From IMG/VR virus record IMGVR_UViG_3300031902_000003, positions 11,824 through 75,823 of that record: a DNA stretch of 64,000 bases, one strand, 5' to 3'. A program made the translations under genes and the position numbers. This DNA comes from a virus (taxonomy: Duplodnaviria > Caudoviricetes). The notes below the pieces were generated by a model. That model had not been told where the DNA came from, searched no databases, and worked only from the letters and a program-made list of their open reading frames with translations. Within the stretch, counting starts at the first letter, position 1; every line of letters begins with the position of its first letter. Below are positions 54,779 through 64,000 of the stretch, in pieces.

Positions 54779-55311
54779 TACTCACAGGTTTATTACTCAC
54801 TAGCTGCGGGGTGGGTCAATTTGCAGTCGAGTGTGATCCAATTGGTACTGGAAAGTGGACGATAAGACAGAACGATGTTACATGTGAAAGAATTCAACAG
54901 GAAGTCAATATAGCTCTTGATATTCTTGAAGAGAGAGGGATAGCAAAAAGAACAGAGTTTGTTAACGCAGTGGTCGAAGTAAAACAAGTCACATGCCTAA
55001 GAATGGCAGTTAAGTCTAGTGATGAAAAAGAATTTGACTGTTTTGACGGAACAGAAGGATTCGGAATGATTGTTTTAGCTTGGGATAGAACTGCTCTTCT
55101 TCACGAACTTATTCATTATAAGCAAGCAGCAGATCTTGACATTTCAACATCTAATCATATCGGATGGAAAGAGAGAGGTTTTTACGAAGCAGATCATGAA
55201 TATGAACACCAAATTTATCTCTTGTGGTATAATGAAGGTGTAAGCCCAGTCATGGAAGATGGAACAAGATACTACTACAATCCGGATGGCGGATCGTTAG
55301 GAATTCACTAA
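54766..55311 (+). CDS. Predicted lipoprotein, HExxH metallopeptidase family member 3
   Basis: LLTS-C; HELIH...NHIGWKERGFY. Confidence 0.7.
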   Translation: MRKLILTGLLLTSCGVGQFAVECDPIGTGKWTIRQNDVTCERIQQEVNIALDILEERGIAKRTEFVNAVVEVKQVTCLRMAVKSSDEKEFDCFDGTEGFGMIVLAWDRTALLHELIHYKQAADLDISTSNHIGWKERGFYEADHEYEHQIYLLWYNEGVSPVMEDGTRYYYNPDGGSLGIH

Positions 55312-55312
55312 A

Positions 55313-55846
55313 ATGAGATACACTATAATCATTGCTTTACTTTTAAGTTGTGGTCCTCAAAATAATCTCCAGACATGTGATCCGATTGGAATGTCAACTT
55401 GGACAATCGGTCAAAATGATCTTACATGTGAAAGAGTTCAATTTGAGGTGAATCTTGCTCTGGACATTCTTGAAAGAAGAAAGTTGGCAACAAAAACAGA
55501 GTTTGTAAACGCCACTGTTGACACTCACAGAATAAATTGTTTGAGATTGCATGATGAAGATACAGAAGGCTATTGTTACCTTGGAACGGAAGGTGGAAGA
55601 CACATCAGGCTGAACTGGATGAGATCTGCTCTTCTTCATGAAATGCTTCATTATAAGCAAGAGATTAATTTCACAACTCCATCAGAGATGCACGCTGGTT
55701 GGGATTCGAATGGTTACAATGAAGCAGATAGAGAATATTATCTTTCATTGTTCCAAACCTGGTACGACGAGGGACAAAGTCCTATCATGGAAGATGGAAA
55801 GAGATTATATTATGAAGCAGATGGTGGATATATCGGAACTCACTAA
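55313..55846 (+). CDS. Predicted lipoprotein, HExxH metallopeptidase family member 4 (tandem paralog of member 3)
   Basis: LLLS-C; HEMLH...MHAGWDSNGY; colinear with 54766 over its full length. Confidence 0.7.
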   Translation: MRYTIIIALLLSCGPQNNLQTCDPIGMSTWTIGQNDLTCERVQFEVNLALDILERRKLATKTEFVNATVDTHRINCLRLHDEDTEGYCYLGTEGGRHIRLNWMRSALLHEMLHYKQEINFTTPSEMHAGWDSNGYNEADREYYLSLFQTWYDEGQSPIMEDGKRLYYEADGGYIGTH

Positions 55847-55857
55847 GGAGAAACAAA

Positions 55858-56103
55858 ATGGCTAAGAAAAAGAAGGTTGTTAAGAAGGCTAAGAAGGTTC
55901 AGGAAGAAATGATGTTGCAGCTCGATGGTAAGGTGTACTTTATCGTCTACAAGAATGGCAAGGTTTCAGAACAGACGGAGATTGATGGAAAGATTGTTCT
56001 TCAGCTTCTTCTTAAGGCAATCGAAGAAGGAATTGATCTACTCGTCAACAAGCATGAGCTTGGAAAGCAGCTTGAACTTCCTTTGGATGAGGAAGAAGAG
56101 TAA
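55858..56103 (+). CDS. Hypothetical protein, Lys-rich N-terminus
   Basis: SD AAGGAG. Confidence 0.65.
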   Translation: MAKKKKVVKKAKKVQEEMMLQLDGKVYFIVYKNGKVSEQTEIDGKIVLQLLLKAIEEGIDLLVNKHELGKQLELPLDEEEE

Positions 56104-56316
56104 ATGGTTATGCCTTTCAATGCCGAAGAGCTTAAGGCTAAGTTGATTGAAGAAGCTCTTCAGTTATGCAAAGAATTCATGGAGATTCATCCATACGAAT
56201 GTTTTTGCGGAACTGGCATTACAACTCCTACAAATTGCACCTGGCATCTTGCATTCGGTAAAGCAGAAGATGCCTTGAGAAAGCTTGGGTACACTTTTAA
56301 ATGGGACAAGAAATGA
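56104..56316 (+). CDS. Hypothetical protein
   Basis: HPYECFC...C motif. Confidence 0.55.
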   Translation: MVMPFNAEELKAKLIEEALQLCKEFMEIHPYECFCGTGITTPTNCTWHLAFGKAEDALRKLGYTFKWDKK

Positions 56317-56729
56317 CTTTGGATGAATATCAAGAAGCAGCTCTGCGCACGTCTCCGAGAGATCAGAGAGCATATAAGATTCCAGAAACTATCTCGGATG
56401 CTCTTCATGATTTTGTTGGTGACGGAGATGGAGCCGATAAGAAAGTTCTAGAGCCACTACTTGATGTGTATGATCAAATGGTTTGGTCTTTAGGGCTTTC
56501 CGGCGAAGCTGGTGAATTTGCAGATCTAATGAAGAAGGCTCATGGTCATGGGCATGAGTTGGATAAGAATAAGGCGGCTAAAGAACTCGGCGATGTATTG
56601 TGGTATGTTTCAGTGCTAGCCAAGTCTTTGGGGTTTACTCTCTCAGAAATTGCAACAATGAATGTAGTAAAGCTCATGAATAGATATCCGAACGGTTTTA
56701 CCGTTGAAGACTCTAAGAGGCATGTATGA
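56313..56729 (+). CDS. mazG: MazG-like nucleoside triphosphate pyrophosphohydrolase
   Basis: YQEAALRT, LGLSGEAGEFADLMKK, KELGDVLWYV and KLMNRYPNGF. Confidence 0.9.
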   Translation: MTLDEYQEAALRTSPRDQRAYKIPETISDALHDFVGDGDGADKKVLEPLLDVYDQMVWSLGLSGEAGEFADLMKKAHGHGHELDKNKAAKELGDVLWYVSVLAKSLGFTLSEIATMNVVKLMNRYPNGFTVEDSKRHV

Positions 56730-57103
56730 CTACAGAATTGAAGACAATGAAGGGAGATAAGGACAGCCGCTTGAATCTCCTCGAAGGTCTCAGCAGGGAT
56801 CAATTGGTTGACTTGGTATTGGCTCATGGCCTTTGTTATGAACACCTCGAGACAAAGGTATTGGGGATGGGATATTATGCAAATTGTCTTCACTGTGCAT
56901 GTGTAGAACATGACCATGCTTTATCGGAGATAGATCTTCTAATTCTAAATCCAGAACCAGACGAGTATGGTAACACTGCTTCTATTTATGATTGTGATTA
57001 CTATCCAGAAGGCGTCGTTAAGAGAGTTGAGACATTTGTCAAAGATTCACGTCTCATGTTTGAATCATTTAGAGATAGCCTGAAGGACCAGAAAGACATG
57101 TAA
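56726..57103 (+). CDS. Hypothetical protein
   Basis: ATGA overlap. Confidence 0.6.
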   Translation: MTTELKTMKGDKDSRLNLLEGLSRDQLVDLVLAHGLCYEHLETKVLGMGYYANCLHCACVEHDHALSEIDLLILNPEPDEYGNTASIYDCDYYPEGVVKRVETFVKDSRLMFESFRDSLKDQKDM

Positions 57104-57207
57104 AATGATGACATCTGAAAGAAGACTTCTGTCTAAAGAACGTCTTCTGGAAGATGTCATCTAATTCATCGATAATACTTCAGAGTACTACTTACAAAAG
57201 AGAGACT

Positions 57208-57363
57208 ATGAGCGAAGACAAGGAAAAGAAGGGGTTGCCTCCAATCTTTAAGAAGAGAGTAGAAAAGCCTAAAGAAGAAGAGCCTAAGACCGATTGGGAA
57301 AATGACGAACAATACTTATTCGATTTCGATAACACAATTTATGACGATCCACACACAGATTAA
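57208..57363 (+). CDS. Small charged protein
   Basis: Start adjusted to ATG 57208. Confidence 0.5.
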   Translation: MSEDKEKKGLPPIFKKRVEKPKEEEPKTDWENDEQYLFDFDNTIYDDPHTD

Positions 57364-57409
57364 ACAAAGTGTTTCAATCTAGTGATTTTTGTGTTATAAT
57401 AGGAGTACC

Positions 57410-57634
57410 ATGAACTTGTCAACTACTAAATTGAGTGGATCCGCTTCAGATGATAATCTCGCAGTGGCAGTTGAGGACGGGAATGATATTCTAAGAGAAT
57501 GTGCTGGAGGTTGTGGTAAGAAGATTCTCTTCTTCGGTTTTCCAGATGAAAATGACTGGGGTGAAAATTTGGATGGCGCCCTTTGTTTGGAGTGTAAGTC
57601 AAATCCATTGAAGCATACACCATATCAAGATTAG
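57410..57634 (+). CDS. Zinc-finger protein
   Basis: CAGGC...CLEC; follows TGT-TATAAT (57395) and AGGAG. Confidence 0.6.
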   Translation: MNLSTTKLSGSASDDNLAVAVEDGNDILRECAGGCGKKILFFGFPDENDWGENLDGALCLECKSNPLKHTPYQD

Positions 57635-57644
57635 TGAGGATAAT

Positions 57645-57971
57645 GTGAGTCAAGAAGAAAAGATGGAACCTGTCAAGAAGGAATTTAAGATTGACATGGT
57701 CGTTAATACAGTTTTTACACTTATTTTTATCGCAGGTCTTGTTTTGTCATTGACATTGCTTAATAGCCTGTTCGGTGTTCTTCTTTGCTCATTTGGCATT
57801 GGATCTATGATCAGAGCCATCATTGATCGAATCGAACTTAACAAGTGGATTGAATTGGCCAATTACCAGAACGATATTCTCGTTTCCATGGTTAATGTAG
57901 CAAACTCAGAGATTACGAAGTCTCTCGCAGCCCAGGGTCAAACTGAAAGGACACCGAACGATTATGTCTGA
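57645..57971 (+). CDS. Membrane protein (2 TM)
   Basis: Two hydrophobic helices. Confidence 0.65.
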   Translation: MSQEEKMEPVKKEFKIDMVVNTVFTLIFIAGLVLSLTLLNSLFGVLLCSFGIGSMIRAIIDRIELNKWIELANYQNDILVSMVNVANSEITKSLAAQGQTERTPNDYV

Positions 57972-58182
57972 TGAATATGATGAAAGTGATGCGAACACTG
58001 CATTGGCATATATGAAGGCCCAATGTCAGGTTAATGGAGTTTCAGCTATCAAGGTCGAAGACGGTGAGATGTTCATGTTCTCTCGACAGCTTGTGGATCA
58101 GCTTATTGAAAAGTTAGATTCTACAGGTCAGGAAAACATCATTGTCTTTGTGAAGAGTGGTGGACAGCTTCAGAAAGTCTAA
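57964..58182 (+). CDS. Hypothetical protein
   Basis: Operon ORF. Confidence 0.6.
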   Translation: MSDEYDESDANTALAYMKAQCQVNGVSAIKVEDGEMFMFSRQLVDQLIEKLDSTGQENIIVFVKSGGQLQKV

Positions 58183-58183
58183 T

Positions 58184-58510
58184 ATGTCCCGACTAAAGAT
58201 TATCGACGTTACTGGATCTGTTGATAGTAAGCCTGCATCTCAAGAAAAGCTTCCTGAAGAGTTCGGCAAGAATCTCGGTACTATTGCTCGAGCTCGTCAG
58301 TGGCTTACAAGTCCTCACAACTGGTTTGAGGGTCAGGTATACATTGTCAAGTGGAATGGTCTTATCCCGACTGTCTGTTCTGCGCACGGTAGAAGACTGC
58401 TTGAAGAACCGTGGGATAATGATTTGCCCGGCGTTGTTGTAAGAGAACAGAATAGACTCAAGGCAGGCGGAAAGCAAGATAAGTTTGAAGATCTGGTGGA
58501 ACGTGATTAA
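58184..58510 (+). CDS. Hypothetical protein
   Basis: Start adjusted to ATG 58184. Confidence 0.6.
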   Translation: MSRLKIIDVTGSVDSKPASQEKLPEEFGKNLGTIARARQWLTSPHNWFEGQVYIVKWNGLIPTVCSAHGRRLLEEPWDNDLPGVVVREQNRLKAGGKQDKFEDLVERD

Positions 58511-58766
58511 GAAAATCTTTAACATGTTCCACAAGGAAAAAGTCGAGCAAGATCCATTTGAGATAGAATCTATCATTGCTGAACGGGATTCGTTAAGAAT
58601 TGAGTTGGAGAATTTGCTACAGGTGCATGAAGATCTTAGACTTGCCTCAATTAAACTTATAGCAACTCAGAGAGATCTCATAGCATTCGTGGAAACATTG
58701 AAGGAAGAGAATGAGATTCTCAAAGTTGCCACTATGACACAGTCACTAGGAAAGGGCATACAGTGA
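58485..58766 (+). CDS. Coiled-coil protein
   Basis: Heptad-rich; start uncertain. Confidence 0.55.
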   Translation: MKIWWNVIKKIFNMFHKEKVEQDPFEIESIIAERDSLRIELENLLQVHEDLRLASIKLIATQRDLIAFVETLKEENEILKVATMTQSLGKGIQ

Positions 58767-59020
58767 GTGCAGATGTGTGGCTTAAGGATTTTAGTGAGTT
58801 CGTAAACAACAAATCAAAGAAGTTAGCCCAGAGTGAACTTGAGAAAGGCGAGATGGAAGCTGCCATCATGCTTATTGGATCCAAGATTCTTACTCTCTTC
58901 CCAGATGATGTAAGAGACAACGATCAGGTTCCAGATGTCGTAATTAGACTATTGGAAGAACTAGCTAGTCTTAGAATGATTGTGAAGGAACAAAATAATG
59001 AGCAATTGCCTAAGTTGTGA
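58763..59020 (+). CDS. Hypothetical protein
   Basis: GTGA overlap. Confidence 0.6.
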   Translation: MSADVWLKDFSEFVNNKSKKLAQSELEKGEMEAAIMLIGSKILTLFPDDVRDNDQVPDVVIRLLEELASLRMIVKEQNNEQLPKL

Positions 59021-59477
59021 TAGTAGTCTTAATTCAAGCTTTGAAGAGAGAAATAACTACTGCGTTCTCTGTATTGAGGGAAAGCTAAAACTTTTAGAGT
59101 CTCACGTTCAAGAGATTCAATTTCTAGTTAATGAAAATAAGAAGATAAAAGAAGACTCAAAGCTGAAAGACGAAAAGGTCACCGAGATCACAAGATTGCT
59201 TCAGGCTGAGACTCAAGGCATTGAATCTGCTCGTGTTGGTCTTTCCGATGAACATAATCCTTTTACTCCTGGAAACCAGGATCATGTTATGTGGTTGAGT
59301 GGCTGGCAATCTGTCGATACTCGTAGAAGGACTGAGCAGTCTATCGCTGTTCTTAGATGGTCAACTCAGATGCTAGATAGCGTCAGGGAATTGGCTCTAG
59401 GCTATGATAAGACAGAAATTGCGGACAAGGTTCAAACAGTTCTTGAAAAGTTGAGAAACTTCCTGGATAAGAAATGA
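58998..59477 (+). CDS. Hypothetical protein (CxxC-CxxC plus coiled-coil)
   Basis: CLSC...CVLC; HNPF..G...WLSGW resembles an Rmf-like motif. Confidence 0.6.
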   Translation: MSNCLSCDSSLNSSFEERNNYCVLCIEGKLKLLESHVQEIQFLVNENKKIKEDSKLKDEKVTEITRLLQAETQGIESARVGLSDEHNPFTPGNQDHVMWLSGWQSVDTRRRTEQSIAVLRWSTQMLDSVRELALGYDKTEIADKVQTVLEKLRNFLDKK

Positions 59478-59971
59478 AAATTTTAAAGTATCCAAATAGG
59501 AGTCTTACAACACCGACCATTGAGATTGACTTTAATGATCTTGGAGATAGTGATGTTCCTTCATTGGTAGAAACAATGAAACTCATGCTTGCCGAACAGC
59601 ATAACGGTTTAGCATTGGCAGCTAATCAGGTTGGTTTGCCGTGGAAGCTTTTTGTGGTCAGAAGTGATTTTGCCGCAGCTAATAATATAGCTAATGTGAT
59701 CGTCAATCCGAAGTATGTCGGGATCGAAGATGAAGTTGCAGATAGAGAAGGATGCTTATCATTTCCAGGAGTAAACCTCCTAATTTCAAGATATGCAGCT
59801 ATAGCCTGTTCATATTTTAATATGCAAGGAGAACAGTTCTCTTGCCAGTTGAATGGTCTTGTTGCAAGAATGTTCCAACACGAATGTGAACATTTAGAAG
59901 GTAAGCTTTTCACAGATAACGTAGATCGAATAACTCGTTACCAGGTATATGGTGTTATGAGGAAAAGATAA
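59474..59971 (+). CDS. def: Peptide deformylase
   Basis: GLALAANQVG, EGCLS and QHECEHLEG. Confidence 0.93.
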   Translation: MKILKYPNRSLTTPTIEIDFNDLGDSDVPSLVETMKLMLAEQHNGLALAANQVGLPWKLFVVRSDFAAANNIANVIVNPKYVGIEDEVADREGCLSFPGVNLLISRYAAIACSYFNMQGEQFSCQLNGLVARMFQHECEHLEGKLFTDNVDRITRYQVYGVMRKR

Positions 59972-59972
59972 T

Positions 59973-60479
59973 ATGGAATGGAAAAAGATCATAACAAACA
60001 AGGGTTGGAGAGTATATCCACTTATCATAGAAAAGCAATATCTAAAAAAGATATCAAGTGGAAGAACTGTTCCGGAATCTGCTCACAAGGTAGTTGTGGA
60101 TTTCGCTGGTATGGTAATGGCAGACAGAACATATCAGACTCTAAATCTATGCGAATTGAGTATTAGGATACCGTCACAAGATTTTGAAGAAATGTATCTA
60201 CAACTCAAAAACTGCAAGCCAGAAATTTTGACAGATGATGTTGAAGTCTTTAAGATTAGGGGATGGCTGGCTGGAGTTGTCATGACAAGAGATATGAGGG
60301 TTGTCATGATGAGAACGATGGAAGAAGTGATGCCGAGTATTAAGAAGATTGCACAAAATGAAAATGATGAATTTGTTCGAAGGATGAATCAGATTTCTAA
60401 GAATTCTGGCAATACTGTTGTCTCTAGACGTGCCAAGGAACTTGAGAAGAACAGTGGTGATAAGGTGAAGCCTAACTAA
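59973..60479 (+). CDS. Hypothetical protein
   Basis: Operon ORF. Confidence 0.6.
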   Translation: MEWKKIITNKGWRVYPLIIEKQYLKKISSGRTVPESAHKVVVDFAGMVMADRTYQTLNLCELSIRIPSQDFEEMYLQLKNCKPEILTDDVEVFKIRGWLAGVVMTRDMRVVMMRTMEEVMPSIKKIAQNENDEFVRRMNQISKNSGNTVVSRRAKELEKNSGDKVKPN

Positions 60480-60625
60480 GGTTCTATTATATATCATGAT
60501 CTCCTCGGTGACCTCTACTCACACTCAAATATAAAAGATGGCATAATCCACCACCATTATAATAAACACCTCTGAGTTGTTCGAGTGAAGGGTAAAATCT
60601 TGGATATCCTATACATACTAAAAGG

Positions 60626-60961
60626 ATGTCAAAGTCTAAGAAGAAAGGTTCAGAAAAGAGTTTCTCTGTAAGTCTAAGCCAGAAAGAAATGGTTAGAATT
60701 TACGGAAAGATTCATTCTCTTCTAGCGAAGAGGCTTCGTGATGCTAAGAAGCAAAATGACATCTTTAAAGGAAGAGATAAAAAGCTGAAGAGAAAGTATG
60801 CTGATTCCGCAAAGGAACTTTATGCTTATGTTAGGCTCATGGAACTCTGCCAGAACTTGTCTAAGGATTCTAGTGAAATGAGAGATATTTTAGAGACTCT
60901 AAGCAAGAATACACTTCTGTATGCCACACATGAAGGTGAGCATGTGGGAAAGCCTAATTAG
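60626..60961 (+). CDS. Hypothetical basic protein
   Basis: SD-like AAAGG; Lys-rich. Confidence 0.6.
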   Translation: MSKSKKKGSEKSFSVSLSQKEMVRIYGKIHSLLAKRLRDAKKQNDIFKGRDKKLKRKYADSAKELYAYVRLMELCQNLSKDSSEMRDILETLSKNTLLYATHEGEHVGKPN

Positions 60962-60965
60962 GGTT

Positions 60966-61448
60966 ATGAAACCACAACTAAGAGTAGGTATAGTCGGTAG
61001 TAGACGTAGGTGCAGTTTAACCGACAGAAAGATTGTATTTAATCTTGTAGAAAAGATCGTAGTTAACAATCCTCATAGAGATGTTGTCATTGTATCTGGA
61101 GCCTGTAGATTAGGAGCAGATAATTTTGCAGCAGAGGCTTCTAGGATCTATAAGTTGAAGCTTGTAGAGTATCCTGTTGTTCCTGGGACATATGGAGAAA
61201 GATGGGAATTCGCTAAAGCTGCTTTCGCTAGAAATAAGAGTATAGCTGAGAATTCTGATGTTGGATTTGCTCTCGTGCATCAAGATAGAAAAGGTGGTAC
61301 TGAAAATACCATACATCATTACCACGATCTAAAAAAGAAAATTTATCTTGTCGATGAATCCGGAAGAACATACTTATCCTCAATAGAGGAGAAGAACTTT
61401 TCAGATGTCACGCAAGACCCCGACAAGGATAGAAATTCATCGACTTAA
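60966..61448 (+). CDS. SLOG / DprA-Smf Rossmann-like protein
   Basis: VGIVGSRR, IVSGAC..GADNFA, ARNKSIAENSD and GGTENTI. Confidence 0.75.
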   Translation: MKPQLRVGIVGSRRRCSLTDRKIVFNLVEKIVVNNPHRDVVIVSGACRLGADNFAAEASRIYKLKLVEYPVVPGTYGERWEFAKAAFARNKSIAENSDVGFALVHQDRKGGTENTIHHYHDLKKKIYLVDESGRTYLSSIEEKNFSDVTQDPDKDRNSST

Positions 61449-61758
61449 ACGGCACCTAAATGGCCCTAAGTCTGAGCTTATCCCTTTTCATGATTTAGAT
61501 GATAAAGAAAGAGTTATAGTCTCTGAATCTATTTTTAGTAAAATTTATACCTCTAAAAAAGATCCATATGAAGCATATGCTGAAGTATTAGATGATTGGG
61601 GAATTATCTGCCCACATCCGCAGCATATGAAATTATACTCAGGTACAGTAGCTTCTTTATTTCCTCTATTCCCACATAAGTGGTATAAATGCCAAGTTTG
61701 TGACTGTCTATGCATCAATGAAGATTTTCACGAAGAATCTGTCAAGATGGCAAAATAA
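61405..61758 (+). CDS. Hypothetical protein
   Basis: CPHP...CQVC. Confidence 0.55.
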   Translation: MSRKTPTRIEIHRLKRHLNGPKSELIPFHDLDDKERVIVSESIFSKIYTSKKDPYEAYAEVLDDWGIICPHPQHMKLYSGTVASLFPLFPHKWYKCQVCDCLCINEDFHEESVKMAK

Positions 61759-61770
61759 TCACAAAAGTGT

Positions 61771-61799
61771 GTACCTCTGAAAAATCTTGTGATATTATT
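61771..61799 (+). promoter_or_regulatory. Promoter upstream of the RNA cluster
   Basis: TGTACC-17 bp-TATTAT. Confidence 0.6.
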
Positions 61800-61955
61800 T
61801 AGTCATAATCGAAAGTTAGAACATATATAACTTTTAGGAGAATGGTTGTGCTAAATCAACGCGCCCAAAAATTTGAAGCGTATAACTGCGTGGCAGAACA
61901 GGATAGTATTGCATCCTTGTCAACACGCGGTAATAAGCTTCCAGGACGCCATATA

Positions 61956-62008
61956 GGATTTACCAGCACTTCCTATCTCTGGTAAATCCCAAAACATAAA
62001 GATAGGAA
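61956..62008 (+). ncRNA. H-type pseudoknot upstream of tRNA-Gln
   Basis: S1 GGATTTACCAG/CTGGTAAATCC (11 bp); S2 TTCCTATCT/AGATAGGAA (9 bp); L1 CAC; L3 CAAAACATAA. Confidence 0.65.
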
Positions 62009-62020
62009 CGAAGAGAATAT

Positions 62021-62091
62021 TGGGGAATCGTCCAATGGTAGGACGACGGTCTTTGACACCGTCTATGTAGGTTCGAATCCTACTTTCCCAT
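62021..62091 (+). tRNA. tRNA-Gln(UUG)
   Basis: TGGGGAA/TTTCCCA, ACGGT-CTTTGAC-ACCGT, GTAGG-TTCGAAT-CCTAC. Confidence 0.93.
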
Positions 62092-62122
62092 TGAAGTAAA
62101 ATGCAGTTGAAAGGAAAATAAA

Positions 62123-62608
62123 ATGTTGCTGGATAAGAGCTGGAAGACGATCAACGGTAAGCCAATGCCAAATATCCTTGAAGATATCAAGGCTCTATTG
62201 GTAGAGGATGATACGGAGATCCACGTGGGTACAGACTCTCAGCAAGCTGGTAAGCATACGGAGTTTGTATCCGTAATTGTAGTGTTGAAGAAGGGTAAGG
62301 GTGGTAGGGCATTTTACGCTAGAGAGAGAACGGCAAGGGTTAAGTCACTTCGAGAAAGGCTTTTGAAGGAGGTGTGGATGAGCGTGAATACGGGATTGGA
62401 GTTGAACTCACACATTCCAGAAACTTCTGGTTTGACTGTTCATATCGATGCCAATCCTAATCTGAAGTTTAGATCTTCAGATCACGTTAAGGAACTTACG
62501 GCAATGGTTGTAAGCCAAGGTTTCAAGACCCTCCTCAAGCCTGACTCTTGGTGTGCAAGTCATACCGCAGACCACGTTGTAAAGAAGACTGTGTTGAAAG
62601 CATCATAG
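62123..62608 (+). CDS. RNase H-like YkuK/DUF458 family protein
   Basis: IHVGTDSQ, ERLLKEVWMS, VHIDAN and IKPDS-like LKPDSWCASHTADH. Confidence 0.8.
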   Translation: MLLDKSWKTINGKPMPNILEDIKALLVEDDTEIHVGTDSQQAGKHTEFVSVIVVLKKGKGGRAFYARERTARVKSLRERLLKEVWMSVNTGLELNSHIPETSGLTVHIDANPNLKFRSSDHVKELTAMVVSQGFKTLLKPDSWCASHTADHVVKKTVLKAS

Positions 62609-62658
62609 TTGAAAGCCTCTGCAGTAGAAATATTGCAGAGGTTATTTAAATAGAATAT

Positions 62659-62746
62659 GGAGTGTACGCTTGCAACGGCAACGCAAGGTCGGTCTTGAAA
62701 ACCGATAGTTCTGAATAAGGGCCGGGTTCGACTCCCCGTCACTCCG
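62659..62746 (+). tRNA. tRNA-Ser(UGA), atypical D arm
   Basis: TCGGT-CTTGAAA-ACCGA, long variable arm, 5-bp D stem CTTGC/GCAAG; mismatches in acceptor and T stems. Confidence 0.75.
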
Positions 62747-62819
62747 CAGGAAAGCTATATAGGGATAGCAAACAGGGGATCTGTTCGGCGGTTCAGGAAC
62801 CCCAACATTTTGAATAAAT

Positions 62820-62891
62820 GGGCTGCTAGTGATAATGGTAGCACGTCGCCTTTGCACGGCGAATGTAAGGGTTCGATTCCCTTGCGGTCCA
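62820..62891 (+). tRNA. tRNA-Ala(UGC)
   Basis: GGGCTGC/GCGGTCC with G3.U70; TCGCC-TTTGCAC-GGCGA. Confidence 0.93.
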
Positions 62892-62949
62892 CAGTAGATC
62901 TTTTATAAGTGAATAGTTGACGGGGAAGCACCAACTTCCCCTGTAGTAT

Positions 62950-63021
62950 GGTGGTCATGGTGTAATGGTAGCACGGGACACTGTGAATGTTCGAGCGACG
63001 GATCGATACCGTCTGACCACC
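62950..63021 (+). tRNA. tRNA-His(GUG)
   Basis: G-1:C73, GTGGTCA/TGACCAC, GGACA-CTGTGAA-TGTTC; T-loop variant ATCGATA. Confidence 0.9.
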
Positions 63022-63100
63022 CAAGCCGGTAATGTTAGCTCGCGCCTAACTCTCACCACCATTAATTTTATGGTGAGGTCGTCTAAAGCAGGACACCGGC
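63022..63100 (+). ncRNA. Circularly permuted tRNA-like unit P (3' half precedes 5' half)
   Basis: Acceptor 7/7, D 4/4, anticodon stem 5/5 and T 5/5 pair only in permuted order; encoded CCA at 63059-61. Confidence 0.75.
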
Positions 63101-63108
63101 ACCAGATG

Positions 63109-63216
63109 GAGAAAGACATAGGTTCGATTCCTATAATGATACGTGCTAGCCGAGATTCAGGTCGCACCTGATATGTTAGTGCCGCGACTCATTTAGTTTA
63201 ATGGTAGAACATTCTC
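63109..63216 (+). ncRNA. Circularly permuted tRNA-like unit Q (3' half precedes 5' half)
   Basis: Anticodon stem TTCTC/GAGAA 5/5, D arm GTTT-AATGGTA-GAAC, T arm ATAGG-TTCGATT-CCTAT, acceptor 5/7. Confidence 0.65.
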
Positions 63217-63248
63217 GTTTATTTTATGATATAATGGTTTCACAGTAT

Positions 63249-63324
63249 GGGGGTGCAGCTCATGTTGCGTCGGAGCAACCGCCTTTTAAGCGGAAGGTCG
63301 TGGGTTCGATTCCCTCCGCCCCCA
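63249..63324 (+). tRNA. tRNA-Lys(UUU)
   Basis: GGGGGTG/CGCCCCC, ACCGC-CTTTTAA-GCGGA; unusual 11-nt D-loop; preceded by TGA-TATAAT promoter. Confidence 0.9.
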
Positions 63325-63409
63325 CATTCTAGATGCGAGTCTTACCGTAAGGCACTCGAGTTGATTCAGATTTGAATTTTGATTGTCTGACATCTAGGAA
63401 TCTTTTCAT

Positions 63410-63481
63410 CGTGCGTAACGCTACTGGAGTGGCGATCTCCCTGTCACGGAGACGAGATGGGTTCGATTCCCATACGCATGA
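63410..63481 (+). tRNA. tRNA-Asp(GUC)
   Basis: CGTGCGT/ACGCATG, TCTCC-CTGTCAC-GGAGA, ATGGG-TTCGATT-CCCAT. Confidence 0.85.
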
Positions 63482-63486
63482 AGTTT

Positions 63487-63600
63487 GGGTTGTGTTGATG
63501 GAACTAGTTCTGGGTTCGAGTCCCAGTGTCTCCACTAATATGGGGATAGGAATTGGTCCCTGCCGCGGCAGTGTAACGGGTTCGACTCCCGTACAATCCA
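63487..63600 (+). ncRNA. Strand-swapped double tRNA mimic without anticodon loops; two G3.U70 acceptor helices
   Basis: GGGTTGT/ACAATCC-A and GGGGATA/TGTCTCC-A each pair 7/7 only in swapped register; two perfect T arms. Confidence 0.75.
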
Positions 63601-63608
63601 TAGATTTT

Positions 63609-63683
63609 GGATCCTTGGCATGTCTGGTTGATTGCGGTAAGCTGTTAACTTACTCTAGCTCGGTTCGATTCCGAGAGGGTCCT
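63609..63683 (+). tRNA. tRNA-Asn(GUU)
   Basis: GGATCCT/AGGGTCC, GTAAG-CTGTTAA-CTTAC. Confidence 0.9.
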
Positions 63684-63695
63684 CTTTAAAAATTT

Positions 63696-63781
63696 GGGTC
63701 ATTTGAATCAATGGAGATTCAGTGCGCTGTAAACGCACCCTGCCTGGAGCATACCGAGAGGTTCGATCCCTCTATGACCCA
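63696..63781 (+). tRNA. tRNA-Tyr(GUA)
   Basis: GGGTCAT/ATGACCC, GTGCG-CTGTAAA-CGCAC, long variable arm. Confidence 0.92.
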
Positions 63782-63784
63782 CAT

Positions 63785-63867
63785 CGACGAGTGATGTAAT
63801 GGTAGCCATAGTTGACTTAAAATCAACTGACTTAATTGTCGTGAGGGTTCGAGTCCCTCCTTGTCGA
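63785..63867 (+). tRNA. tRNA-Leu(UAA)
   Basis: CGACGAG/CTTGTCG, GTTGA-CTTAAAA-TCAAC, long variable arm. Confidence 0.9.
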
Positions 63868-63953
63868 CTGTTCCGGTGGTGAACCGGAAGCCTGAGACGT
63901 CGGGTAGTGACACATACTTCAAGTTGTGTGACAGCGAGGAGAGACTGCACCAT

Positions 63954-64000
63954 ACCTCTATGGTGGAATTGGTAGACACAGCATCCTCAAAAGGTGCCGG
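63954..64000 (+). tRNA. tRNA-Leu(CAA), truncated by the window end
   Basis: GTGGAATTGGTAGACAC D arm and GCATC-CTCAAAA-GGTGC. Confidence 0.85.

What the first reader, a model, noticed from the sequence alone, without database searches (positions are those of the whole stretch)
63022..63216. Two tandem circularly permuted tRNA bodies, opened at the anticodon loop
Seen: immediately after the tRNA-His discriminator comes a tRNA 3' half. It has anticodon-stem strand GCCGG (63025-29), variable TAAT, T stem GTTAG/CTAAC, acceptor strand TCTCACC (63051-57), A73 and an encoded CCA. Ten nt later comes its matching 5' half: GGTGAGG (63072-78, 7/7 pairs), D stem GTCT/GGAC, and CCGGC (63096-100, 5/5 with GCCGG). 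An 8-nt linker (ACCAGATG) joins this to a second 3' half (GAGAA, AGAC, ATAGG-TTCGATT-CCTAT, AATGATA-C). Its 5' half lies 44 nt downstream (ACTCATT 5/7, GTTT-AATGGTA-GAAC, TTCTC 5/5 with GAGAA), and the 44-nt spacer itself folds as a hairpin. Read linearly, the middle looks like a broken pseudo-tRNA because its stems do not pair in cis. Established: permuted tRNA genes occur in red/green algae and an archaeon and mature through a circular intermediate. I do not know of a phage case. Inference: either the halves are ligated into tRNAs, or they form a daisy chain of tRNA bodies linked through their anticodon positions, presenting acceptor ends but no cleavable anticodon loop. Unit P has degenerate D- and T-loops, so it may not be a translating tRNA.
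Basis: partly seen in the sequence, partly recalled or inferred. Interest (0 to 1): 0.9.

Follow-up and report, generated by a model that had tools for sequence, protein, structure and literature searches.

The report
Anticodon-less permuted tRNA mimics in phage
Two back-to-front tRNA look-alikes with sealed acceptor ends and no anticodon loop sit in a peat phage's tRNA gene array; they belong to a conserved family of small structured RNAs that resembles the known YrlA tRNA mimics but lacks their Ro60 partner features.

Summary
P (63025-63100) and Q (63109-63216) are complete tRNA bodies written in the order T arm, acceptor hairpin, D arm. Each is closed by the anticodon-stem pairing.

Independent peat assemblies bridge the region without a difference, so it is not a chimera. 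I found 17 P-type and 7 Q-type copies in related environmental phages (contigs up to about 200 kb), at the same places in their tRNA arrays.
- Covariation is strong: 18 of 21 pairs change on both sides, and 97% of cells pair.
- The tRNA tertiary pair 15:48 also covaries.

They are not decoding tRNAs:
- no conserved anticodon loop;
- some acceptor hairpins carry GNRA caps;
- Q's acceptor stem keeps a conserved mismatch;
- no splicing endonuclease was found.

The topology is that of YrlA Y RNAs, known in bacteria and mycobacteriophages since 2014. So "no phage case" is wrong. Membership in YrlA fails:
- the Rfam YrlA model does not match;
- there is no terminal Ro60-binding stem;
- no rsr lies in the contig;
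- the rsr-bearing loci fetched lack both P and Q at this site.

Q's acceptor arm carries a conserved two-fold symmetric bulge-helix-bulge-like module of unknown partner. Function is inferred; I found no RNA data. The scan has noted similar permuted tRNA mimics on other DNA. Verdict: a new variant of a known kind.

The parts
62951..63022 (+). tRNA-His(GTG). It is the upstream neighbour; P starts 2 nt after its discriminator.
   Evidence: ARAGORN; Rfam tRNA, 55.5 bits.
63025..63100 (+). Unit P, a permuted tRNA-like body. In order: closing 3' strand 63025-29; variable TAAT 63030-33; T arm 63034-50 with the non-canonical loop CTCGCGC; acceptor 3' strand 63051-57; 14-nt cap ACCATTAATTTTAT 63058-71; acceptor 5' strand 63072-78; T8 C9 63079-80; D arm 63081-94 with loop AAAGCA; A 63095; closing 5' strand 63096-100.
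   Evidence: Sequence. Model R1 scores it 72.6 bits. Covariation over 17 homologues. T8, A14 and A15:T48 are kept.
63101..63108 (+). 8-nt single-stranded linker ACCAGATG between P and Q. It is not conserved; L002 has GTTTTATTCA here.
63109..63216 (+). Unit Q, a permuted tRNA-like body with an extended acceptor arm. In order: closing 3' strand 63109-13; variable AGAC; T arm 63118-34 with loop TTCGATT; acceptor 3' strand 63135-41; module 63142-86; acceptor 5' strand 63187-93; T8 A9; D arm 63196-210 with loop AATGGTA; A 63211; closing 5' strand 63212-16.
   Evidence: Sequence. Seven lineages have different closing, T and D stems that all pair. After re-permutation ARAGORN calls it a tRNA at default threshold.
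63142..63186 (+). Conserved two-fold symmetric module capping Q's acceptor arm. Central 6-bp helix: GCTAGC 63145-50 with GTTAGT 63175-80. Each strand is followed 3' by a CGNGAY-type bulge (CGAGAT 63151-56; GCCGCGAC 63181-88, whose last two bases, 63187-88, are also the two unpaired first bases of Q's acceptor 5' strand). An apical hairpin lies at 63157-71, followed by TAT 63172-74.
   Evidence: Aligned by eye across window, L004, L021, L023, L024, L026 and L002. The helix sequence differs in L002 (5 of 6 pairs) and L024 (all 6 pairs). No exact-pattern match in genome contigs or IMG/VR.
63217..63248 (+). T-rich run GTTTATTTTA, then the extended -10 promoter motif TGATATAAT at 63227-35, just upstream of tRNA-Lys.
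   Evidence: TGNTATAAT occurs 16 times in the window against 1.5 expected, 14 of them on the + strand.
63249..63325 (+). tRNA-Lys(TTT), the downstream neighbour.
   Evidence: ARAGORN; Rfam tRNA, 51.4 bits.

Best explanation
P and Q are two members of one family of tRNA-derived, anticodon-less structured RNAs. The family is encoded inside the tRNA array of a clade of environmental phages (contigs up to about 200 kb).

Each unit is a whole tRNA body written as: anticodon-stem 3' strand, variable loop, T arm, acceptor 3' strand, cap, acceptor 5' strand, U8-N9, D arm, anticodon-stem 5' strand. The chain ends therefore lie where the anticodon loop would be, and the acceptor end is sealed. P is sealed by a short loop. 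Q is sealed by a conserved two-fold symmetric bulge-helix-bulge-like module.

Shown: the layout, its conservation, covariation of all four helices and of the tertiary 15:48 pair, and contiguity.

Inferred:
- Each unit folds in cis into an L-shaped tRNA mimic.
- It is transcribed with the tRNA-Ser/Ala/His unit that ends before the promoter at 63227.
- It is freed by the same RNase Z, RNase P and RNase E cuts that mature its tRNA neighbours.
- It does not decode. It acts as a tRNA-shaped handle or decoy for tRNA-binding proteins, as the tRNA-like domain of YrlA Y RNAs does, but without a Ro60-binding stem.
- Q's symmetric module is the likely docking site for a still unknown partner, perhaps a dimer.
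For: Layout.
- Verified. Re-permuted Q, L002-P and L002-Q are called tRNA by ARAGORN at default threshold; window P only at lowered threshold.

Homologues in independent assemblies.
- L002 has the same P-Q pair between tRNA-His and tRNA-Lys.
- Model R1 finds 17 P-type elements that overlap no tRNA, in the window and 13 loci. They lie between His and Lys or between Leu and Ile.

Covariation.
- 97.4% of cells pair. 18 of 21 pairs change on both sides. The closing helix shows 5 of 5 covarying pairs and is 100% paired. 0 of 500 shuffles reach this, and slid controls score 0.06-0.15 against 0.80.
- RNAalifold predicts the same four helices on its own, though on the model-fitted alignment A7.
- tRNA tertiary signature: T8 and A14 are invariant. 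15:48 is G:C in 8, A:T in 6 and T:A in 1 of 17.
- Q-type: seven lineages with six different closing stems. Six lineages pair 5/5 and L004 pairs 4/5. T and D stems also differ and pair.

Against decoding.
- The flanks give no conserved 7-nt loop.
- GNRA-capped acceptor hairpins in L005 (GAAA) and L008 (GCAA).
- A conserved non-Watson-Crick 2:71 pair in Q.

Topology equals YrlA.
- The published order is V-T-AS-D (PMC4201824).
- R1 hits elements with this T-AS-D order upstream of Ro in Streptomyces phage Gilson at 27.6-28.3 bits; this is inside the range of R1's tRNA-pair false positives. It finds only the T arm in mycobacteriophage Spud; I read that element by eye.

Transcription unit.
- The promoter motif TGATATAAT lies between Q and tRNA-Lys.

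Contiguity.
-.
Against: - No transcript, end-mapping or binding datum exists. The only RNA run laid covers just tRNA-Lys, on a contig whose flanks do not match the window.
- Window P has lost the canonical T loop (CTCGCGC) and the D-loop GG. Its elbow may therefore not be tRNA-like. These odd loops are themselves conserved in L027, L029 and L007.
- Thermodynamic folding of the single sequence is not exceptional.
- The alignments used for pair counts were fitted to the model.
- R1 also gives false positives of up to about 43 bits on adjacent isoacceptor tRNAs. Scores alone do not define membership, so I kept only hits that overlap no tRNA.
- The protein partner is unknown.
Confidence: 0.65

Rival explanations
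1. They are bona fide YrlA-class Y RNAs. Their job is to bind Ro60/Rsr, from the phage or the host, and tether it to an effector.
For: - Same V-T-AS-D topology (PMC4201824).
- Sister phages carry rsr (TROVE plus vWA_Ro60) inside the same tRNA array: L010, L011, L014, L015 and the P0060 contig.
- L015 has a P-type element 1.5 kb upstream of rsr on the same strand.
- Q's module repeats GCCGAGA. The same heptamer follows the terminal stem of the YrlA-like element I read upstream of Ro in mycobacteriophage Spud (GGCAG-GCCGAGAG). It also resembles the published GNCGAAN0-1G motif.
Against: - Rfam YrlA RF02553 scores at most 13.9 bits in the contig against a cut-off of 69, with no hit at P or Q.
- P has no terminal stem and no motif.
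- In Q the motif sits on the acceptor arm, not at the 5' end. Its fifth base varies (A, C or T) where YrlA has A.
- No TROVE gene is in the window contig or in L002's 75-kb contig; both are about 37% complete.
- rsr lies between tRNA-Arg(CCG)/Gly and Arg(ACG) in L010, L014 and L015. The same junction has no rsr in the P/Q-bearing L002, L004, L005, L007 and L008.
- All four rsr-bearing loci have tRNA-His directly abutting the next tRNA. They have no Q, and no P in that gap.
Confidence: 0.15
2. They are true permuted tRNA genes. The halves are cut and joined, for example by RtcB, and the acceptor cap is removed by RNase P and RNase Z to give translating tRNAs, as in Cyanidioschyzon.
For: - The 3' half lies upstream of the 5' half, and together they rebuild a cloverleaf that ARAGORN accepts.
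- Window P has a 7-bp acceptor stem, A73 and an encoded CCA.
- L027 and L031 caps also begin ACCA or ACCG.
- RtcB is encoded a few kb upstream in L004, L007, L008, L009 and L026.
Against: - No conserved anticodon loop. The downstream 7-mers are ACCAGAT, GTTTTAT, GCTTTTT and TTTTTTG.
- No helix can form between leader and trailer to give a bulge-helix-bulge at the junction.
- No EndA-family gene and no RtcB in this contig.
- RtcB presence does not track P/Q: L009 has RtcB but no P/Q, while L002 and L005 have P/Q but no RtcB in the DNA fetched.
- Acceptor hairpins are GNRA-capped or shortened to 4 bp in L005 and L008.
- Q's acceptor end is mismatched at 1:72 and 2:71.
- RNase P and RNase Z leave 5'-phosphate and 3'-hydroxyl ends, which are not RtcB substrates (established enzymology).
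Confidence: 0.06
3. They act mainly as branched terminators or 3'-end stabilisers of sub-operons within the tRNA array. In this reading a G+C-rich closing helix followed by a T-run stops or protects the transcript.
For: - Most members are followed directly by a T-run: GTTTATTTT, ATTTTTGTTT, GTTTTTTTCAT, CCTTTTTTTG, TTTTTTGTTTT.
- In the window, and similarly in L031, a -10 promoter element follows within about 15 nt.
Against: - The terminator scan finds nothing here.
- A 5-bp helix closing a 60-130-nt three-way junction is not a known intrinsic-terminator form. Q's closing helix is A+T-rich.
- T-rich leaders precede most tRNAs of these arrays anyway.
- This role would not explain conservation of U8, A14, 15:48 and the T and D loops.
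Confidence: 0.08
4. They are non-functional debris: leftovers of tandem isoacceptor tRNA genes whose outer halves were deleted, or an artefact of reading across two adjacent tRNAs.
For: - Adjacent isoacceptor tRNAs do mimic this layout and score up to about 43 bits with R1, for example Ser(GCT)+Ser(CGA).
- Duplication followed by deletion is the accepted origin model for permuted tRNA genes (own knowledge, Soma et al. 2007).
Against: - P and Q overlap no tRNA and have no outer halves.
- The layout persists, with compensatory changes, in phages whose neighbouring protein is only 55-75% identical.
- The caps carry GNRA tetraloops and conserved modules.
Confidence: 0.03

Closest known systems
YrlA (Y RNA-like A; Rfam RF02553), the tRNA-mimicking Y RNA of bacteria and mycobacteriophages (Chen et al. 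2014, PMC4201824; Wang et al. 2018, 10.1101/312249)
   Same: - Identical strand topology: variable region, T arm, closed acceptor-like hairpin, D arm, with the chain ends at the anticodon-stem position.
- tRNA tertiary nucleotides are kept, including a covarying 15:48 pair.
- Both occur in phage tRNA clusters, sometimes in tandem.
- M. smegmatis YrlA, like window P, has a 7-bp acceptor stem; it is cut there by RNase P and receives CCA.
   Different: - No long terminal stem and no 5' GNCGAAN0-1G motif. P has none; Q has a related GCCGNGAY on the acceptor arm instead.
- The Rfam model does not match.
- No rsr in the contig, and the rsr-bearing loci fetched lack Q, and lack P at this site.
- The closing helix is only 5-6 bp, and the unit sits at tRNA spacing between real tRNA genes.
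Circularly permuted tRNA genes of Cyanidioschyzon merolae, green algae and Thermofilum pendens (own knowledge: Soma et al. 2007; Maruyama et al. 2010; Chan et al. 2011)
   Same: The 3' half is encoded upstream of the 5' half on one strand. The two halves rebuild a cloverleaf.
   Different: - Those genes have a conserved anticodon and a bulge-helix-bulge at the leader-trailer junction. They use a splicing endonuclease and a ligase, and yield translating tRNAs.
- None of these features is present here.
Two-piece (permuted) tmRNA genes (Rfam RF04321 and relatives)
   Same: The T arm and acceptor 3' strand with CCA lie upstream of the acceptor 5' strand, separated by a short excised loop, as in window P.
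   Different: - P and Q lack the G3-U70 alanine identity pair, a tag reading frame and pseudoknots.
- Rfam gives only sub-threshold hits elsewhere in the cluster.
Double tRNA-mimic RNA beside DUF7873
   Same: Two tandem permuted, anticodon-less tRNA look-alikes, sometimes in phage tRNA clusters, without Ro60.
   Different: - That RNA is 370-490 nt with hexamer repeats and follows a gene of about 245 aa.
- Here the pair spans 192 nt between two tRNAs.
- No DUF7873 appears among the neighbours listed for 13 related loci or among the 20 window ORFs scanned.

Membership tests
YrlA (RF02553) | tRNA-like domain in the order V, T arm, closed acceptor-like hairpin, D arm | tested here: met
   Order as published in PMC4201824.
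YrlA (RF02553) | Conserved tRNA tertiary nucleotides: T-loop TTCRA, D-loop GG, and a covarying 15:48 pair | tested here: met
   - Q and most P-type homologues have them. 15:48 is G:C in 8 and A:T in 6 of 17.
- Window P itself lacks TTCRA and GG but keeps T8, A14 and A15:T48.
YrlA (RF02553) | A 5' GNCGAAN0-1G motif and a terminal helix formed by the 5' and 3' ends (the Ro60-binding module) | tested here: not met
   - P starts 2 nt after tRNA-His and Q 8 nt after P, so there is no terminal stem beyond 5-6 bp.
- Q carries GCCGNGAY, but on the acceptor arm. That placement leaves Q inconclusive.
YrlA (RF02553) | Encoded within about 4 kb of rsr on the same strand | tested here: not met
   - No TROVE gene in the 75.8-kb contig, which ends 0.8 kb downstream and is 37% complete.
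- Among relatives only L015 pairs a P-type element with rsr. No Q-bearing locus has rsr.
YrlA (RF02553) | Match to the curated covariance model at or above 69 bits | tested here: not met
   Best score in the contig is 13.9 bits, with none at P or Q. No YrlA hit at E up to 10 on 63000-63250.
Permuted tRNA genes (Cyanidioschyzon type) | 3' half upstream of 5' half, rebuilding a cloverleaf | tested here: met
Permuted tRNA genes (Cyanidioschyzon type) | A conserved anticodon loop supplied by the flanks, and a bulge-helix-bulge at the leader-trailer junction | tested here: not met
   The flanks differ between homologues and cannot pair.
Permuted tRNA genes (Cyanidioschyzon type) | A splicing endonuclease and a ligase are available | tested here: not met
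   PF01974 and PF01139 are absent from the contig, which is a fragment. RtcB is present in some relatives only.
Permuted tRNA genes (Cyanidioschyzon type) | A circular intermediate and a mature aminoacylated tRNA | not testable with these tools
   This needs RNA from infected cells. The one RNA run found does not cover P or Q.
Two-piece tmRNA | G3-U70 with A73, a tag reading frame and pseudoknots | tested here: not met
   P has T3-A70. Q has mismatches at 1:72 and 2:71. No tmRNA-family hit lies on P or Q.

The most novel reading that the evidence does not exclude
P and Q are Ro60-independent tRNA decoys or scaffolds that the phage makes alongside its real tRNAs. In this reading they are anticodon-less bodies that cannot be cut by anticodon nucleases. 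They soak up or recruit tRNA-binding host factors. Q's two-fold symmetric bulge-helix-bulge-like module is the docking or cleavage site for a dimeric phage protein. One candidate is the RNase H-like YkuK/DUF458 protein, which is conserved at the head of the same tRNA array in every locus fetched, all of which were found through that protein. Together this would be an undescribed phage RNA-protein system built on tRNA mimicry.
Probability: 0.2. Interest if true: 0.8.

Novelty: new variant of a known kind. Interest (0 to 1): 0.55.

Why it matters
Phage tRNA arrays are usually read as codon-usage or anti-defence supplies of real tRNAs. This array also holds a conserved, strongly covarying family of anticodon-less tRNA mimics at fixed slots. 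These mimics lack the Ro60 features that explain the only well-studied RNAs of this shape.

If they act as decoys or scaffolds for tRNA-binding proteins, they would add a new layer to the phage-host conflict over tRNAs. They would also show that the YrlA fold is used outside Ro60 particles.

Q's symmetric module gives a concrete, testable handle for finding the partner. The family also serves as a practical warning: tRNA finders miss these elements, and YrlA-style models confuse them with adjacent tRNA pairs.

Tried and rejected
- Rfam scans of 55000-64000 and of 63000-63250 (E up to 10) gave no family for P or Q. The only hit was a 15-bit partial tRNA match across P's D arm and Q's T arm.
- blastn against cultured phages found only tRNA-Lys-like pieces.
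- Four exact-pattern scans of IMG/VR returned only L002's contig or unrelated coding DNA.
- The Q-module pattern found nothing in genome contigs or IMG/VR.
- My own regular-expression and pairing scanners were too permissive. They were swamped by tRNA-tRNA junctions, so I replaced them with a covariance model plus a filter against ARAGORN calls.
- MAFFT could not align the Q units, so I built no Q covariance model and tabulated Q by hand.
- The genome search could not reach the long Logan, ENA and JGI contigs behind L004-L009 and L021-L039. Whole-genome presence of rsr or RtcB in those phages is therefore unknown.
- The TROVE homologue list did not share contig lengths with the long contigs behind L004, L005 and L007-L009 among its best 120. 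This is weak evidence.
- A tRNA-Glu origin for P is suggested by the TCGTCTA...GGAC D arm. Local alignment to the phages' own tRNAs is not decisive.
- The RNA run X24 covers only tRNA-Lys, on a contig whose flanks do not match the window.
- No DUF7873 among the 20 window ORFs scanned.
- Literature search for YkuK/DUF458 gave no function.
- I considered a K-turn, an archaeal bulge-helix-bulge and interdigitated T-loops for Q's module. None fits its spacing or its non-bulged strand. This rests on inspection only.

Full report
**Setting.** The window is the last 64 kb of a 75.8-kb IMG/VR phage contig, estimated 37% complete, and the contig ends inside a tRNA array. The finding lies between tRNA-His (62951-63022) and tRNA-Lys (63249-63325). 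ARAGORN and Rfam call nothing there, apart from a 15-bit partial tRNA hit that joins P's D arm to Q's T arm.

**Observation.**
- P (63025-63100): GCCGG-TAAT-GTTAG-CTCGCGC-CTAAC-TCTCACC-[ACCATTAATTTTAT]-GGTGAGG-TC-GTCT-AAAGCA-GGAC-A-CCGGC. All 21 pairs form.
- An 8-nt linker follows.
- Q (63109-63216): GAGAA-AGAC-ATAGG-TTCGATT-CCTAT-AATGATA-[45 nt]-ACTCATT-TA-GTTT-AATGGTA-GAAC-A-TTCTC. It forms 19 of 21 pairs.

A fully paired layout like P is unique in the window and is expected 0.075 times per shuffled window. Q's pairing alone is not beyond chance. Single-sequence folding is unremarkable, z = -1.36. When the halves are re-joined in silico, ARAGORN calls Q, L002-P and L002-Q tRNAs at default threshold, and window P at a lowered threshold. 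Contigs from three separate peat samples bridge the region without a difference. It is not an assembly chimera.

**Relatives.** The RNase H-like YkuK/DUF458 gene (62123-62608) sits between tRNA-Gln and tRNA-Ser. It has 476 homologues, on contigs up to about 200 kb. Through it I fetched about 95 loci.
- L002 (70% protein identity) has the same P-Q pair between His and Lys, with different stem sequences.
- A covariance model of P (R1) finds 17 elements that overlap no tRNA, in the window and 13 loci.
- They occupy two recurrent slots, His|Lys and Leu(CAA/CAG)|Ile(GAT), plus two others.
- R1 also scores up to about 43 bits on adjacent isoacceptor tRNAs such as Ser(GCT)+Ser(CGA). The YrlA authors warned of this same artefact. 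I excluded every hit that overlaps ARAGORN calls.

**Structure support.**
- On the 17 sequences, 97.4% of cells pair and 18 of 21 pairs show changes on both sides.
- The closing (cross-half) helix is 100% paired, with all five pairs covarying.
- 0 of 500 shuffles reach these values. Sliding the partners drops the covariation score from 0.80 to 0.06-0.15.
- RNAalifold, run on that same model-fitted alignment, predicts the same four helices.
- T8 and A14 are invariant. The Levitt pair 15:48 is G:C in eight, A:T in six and T:A in one of 17. This argues for a tRNA-like L shape.
- Window P belongs to a subtype (with L027, L029, L007) whose T loop (CTCGCGC or ATCACAC) and D loop (AAAGCA or AAGCA) have changed together.

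**Q-type units** occur in seven lineages: window, L002/L005/L025, L004, L021/L022, L023, L024 and L026.
- They have six different closing stems. Six lineages pair 5/5 and L004 pairs 4/5. T and D stems also differ and pair.
- In L021, L023 and L024 the Q body carries the same TC-GTCT...GGAC D arm as P, and R1 hits L021. P and Q are therefore one family, differing in the acceptor cap.

**The caps.**
- P caps range from 6-16-nt loops, some beginning A-CCA, through GNRA-capped short stems (L005 GAAA, L008 GCAA), to 44-57-nt two-hairpin inserts. L004, L007, L015 and L026 share the insert loops YNGATCA and RAAGGCCAMG.
- Q's cap is a conserved module. On both strands it reads YAY, a 6-bp helix (GCTAGC with GTTAGC) and CGNGAY, so bulges lie on opposite strands at the two ends of the helix. 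A variable apical hairpin follows.
- The helix sequence differs in L002 (GTTGGC/GCCCGC, 5 of 6 pairs) and in L024 (GCTAGA/TTTAGC, all six pairs). That supports the pairing.
- The acceptor stem below the module keeps a non-Watson-Crick 2:71 pair in every lineage.
- The geometry recalls an archaeal bulge-helix-bulge, but with 6 bp rather than 4. It also does not fit a K-turn. Its two-fold symmetry suggests a dimeric partner; this is inference.
- The pattern is absent from 185,579 species genomes and from IMG/VR.

**Not decoding tRNAs.**
- The bases that would supply an anticodon loop differ between homologues: ACCAGAT, GTTTTAT, GCTTTTT, TTTTTTG.
- Leader and trailer cannot pair.
- No EndA, RtcB or TROVE gene is in the contig.
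- RtcB occurs upstream in L004, L007, L008, L009, L026 and L037, but it does not track P/Q.

**Comparison with YrlA.** Chen et al. 2014 describe RNAs with a GNCGAAN0-1G motif near the 5' end and stem-loops in the order V, T, AS, D. They lie within 4 kb of rsr in 254 bacteria and 22 phages. M. smegmatis YrlA has a 7-bp acceptor stem, is cut by RNase P and receives CCA. P and Q have that topology.
- R1 hits elements of this order upstream of Ro in Streptomyces phage Gilson at 27.6-28.3 bits, which is inside the range of its tRNA-pair false positives. I read the corresponding element in mycobacteriophage Spud by eye.
- Spud's element starts GGGGAGGCAG-GCCGAGAG. This is the heptamer repeated in Q's module.

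Membership nevertheless fails.
- RF02553 scores at most 13.9 bits against a cut-off of 69, with nothing at P or Q.
- There is no terminal stem.
- The contig and L002's 75-kb contig lack TROVE.
- In this clade rsr lies between tRNA-Arg(CCG)/Gly and Arg(ACG) in L010, L014 and L015. In L011 it lies at the end of the locus. It is also present on the P0060 contig.
- That junction has no rsr in the P/Q-bearing L002, L004, L005, L007 and L008.
- The rsr-bearing loci have tRNA-His abutting the next tRNA, with no Q, and no P there.
- Only L015 combines rsr with a Leu|Ile P-type element.

**Transcription context.** TGNTATAAT is enriched tenfold, 16 matches against 1.5 expected, and 14 of the 16 are on the + strand. 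One copy lies at 63227-35, between Q and tRNA-Lys. P-Q probably end the Ser-Ala-His unit. A T-run follows most family members. The terminator scan finds nothing here.

**Earlier notes of this scan** (unchecked AI notes) describe similar permuted tRNA mimics on other DNA, including a 370-490-nt double mimic beside DUF7873. I found no DUF7873 among the neighbours listed for 13 related loci or among the 20 window ORFs scanned. The P-Q pair here is also much shorter. One of these notes supplied the Rfam accession that I then tested.

**Verdict.** The elements are real, conserved, cis-folding tRNA mimics without anticodon loops. They work like the tRNA-like domain of YrlA, but by four tested criteria they are not members of that family. 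Ligation into translating tRNAs is unlikely. Function and partner remain inferred, and I found no RNA data.

Noticed in passing
window 63487-63600: A nested, strand-swapped double tRNA look-alike.
- The outer acceptor is GGGTTGT with ACAATCC-A.
- The inner unit is T arm CTGGG-TTCGAGT-CCCAG, then TGTCTCC-A, a 7-nt loop, then GGGGATA. It has G3-T70 and A73, the alanine or tmRNA-type identity.
- Rfam gives sub-threshold tmRNA and permuted-tmRNA hits. YrlA scores 11.9 bits over its full length.
- L004 about 8100-8225 looks analogous.
   Followed up: partly
window 62659-62745 and 63410-63481: Two apparently normal tRNAs that ARAGORN misses at default settings.
- tRNA-Ser(TGA): Rfam files it under tRNA-Sec at 32.5 bits.
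- tRNA-Asp(GTC): read by eye, with anticodon loop CTGTCAC. Low-threshold ARAGORN calls 63409-63482 SeC.
   Followed up: partly
window 62123-62608: A YkuK/DUF458 RNase H-like gene (PF04308) sits between tRNA-Gln and the next tRNA at the head of the array in every related locus read. It has 476 homologues, on contigs up to about 200 kb. Its function is unknown. It is a candidate RNA-processing or RNA-binding partner for the array.
   Followed up: partly
window, 16 sites including 63227-63235: The extended -10 motif TGNTATAAT is enriched tenfold, and 14 of its 16 copies are on the + strand. It is probably this phage's main promoter element. The standard -35/-10 scan misses it.
   Followed up: partly
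L002 5997-6146; L004 5662-5804; L005 5742-5893; L007 6487-6630; L008 6486-6595: Another conserved non-coding RNA of 110-150 nt lies directly after tRNA-Ile(GAT). It starts TGGGGAGTGRAGG and appears to close with a long bulged stem (...CCTTCCTCC...), seen by eye. The window's contig ends before this position.
   Followed up: no
L010 5655-7247; L014 4559-6178; L015 4258-5928; L011 7848 onward: A Ro60/Rsr gene (TROVE plus vWA_Ro60) is inserted between tRNA genes of the array in some clade members. RtcB lies a few kb upstream in others (L004, L007, L008, L009, L026, L037). A tmRNA starts at L010 8385. These accessory RNA-repair and quality-control genes vary between sister phages.
   Followed up: partly
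L004 5500-5546; L007 6205-6260; L015 2703-2749; L026 6447-6554: P-type elements in the Leu|Ile slot carry a 44-57-nt acceptor insert of two hairpins. The loops are conserved: YNGATCA and RAAGGCCAMG. This is a second kind of acceptor-arm module, distinct from Q's.
   Followed up: no
L013 (Streptomyces phage Gilson) 2440-3800: At least five tandem units each begin GGGTCGGAT, upstream of the Ro-like gene and inside the tRNA cluster. Two of them hold T/acceptor/D tRNA-like domains. The record does not annotate them.
   Followed up: no
L002 6701-6790; L007 7752-7835; L008 7057-7140; L009 7880-7954: An odd tRNA-like element follows tRNA-Gly in L002, L007 and L008; the L009 copy lies between tRNA-Arg(TCT) and tRNA-Met. 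It reads GCGGGAGGGAGG...CTCATAA...GGTTCAA.TCC...ACCGCATCCA. It has a CAT anticodon loop but an aberrant D region. ARAGORN does not call it.
   Followed up: no
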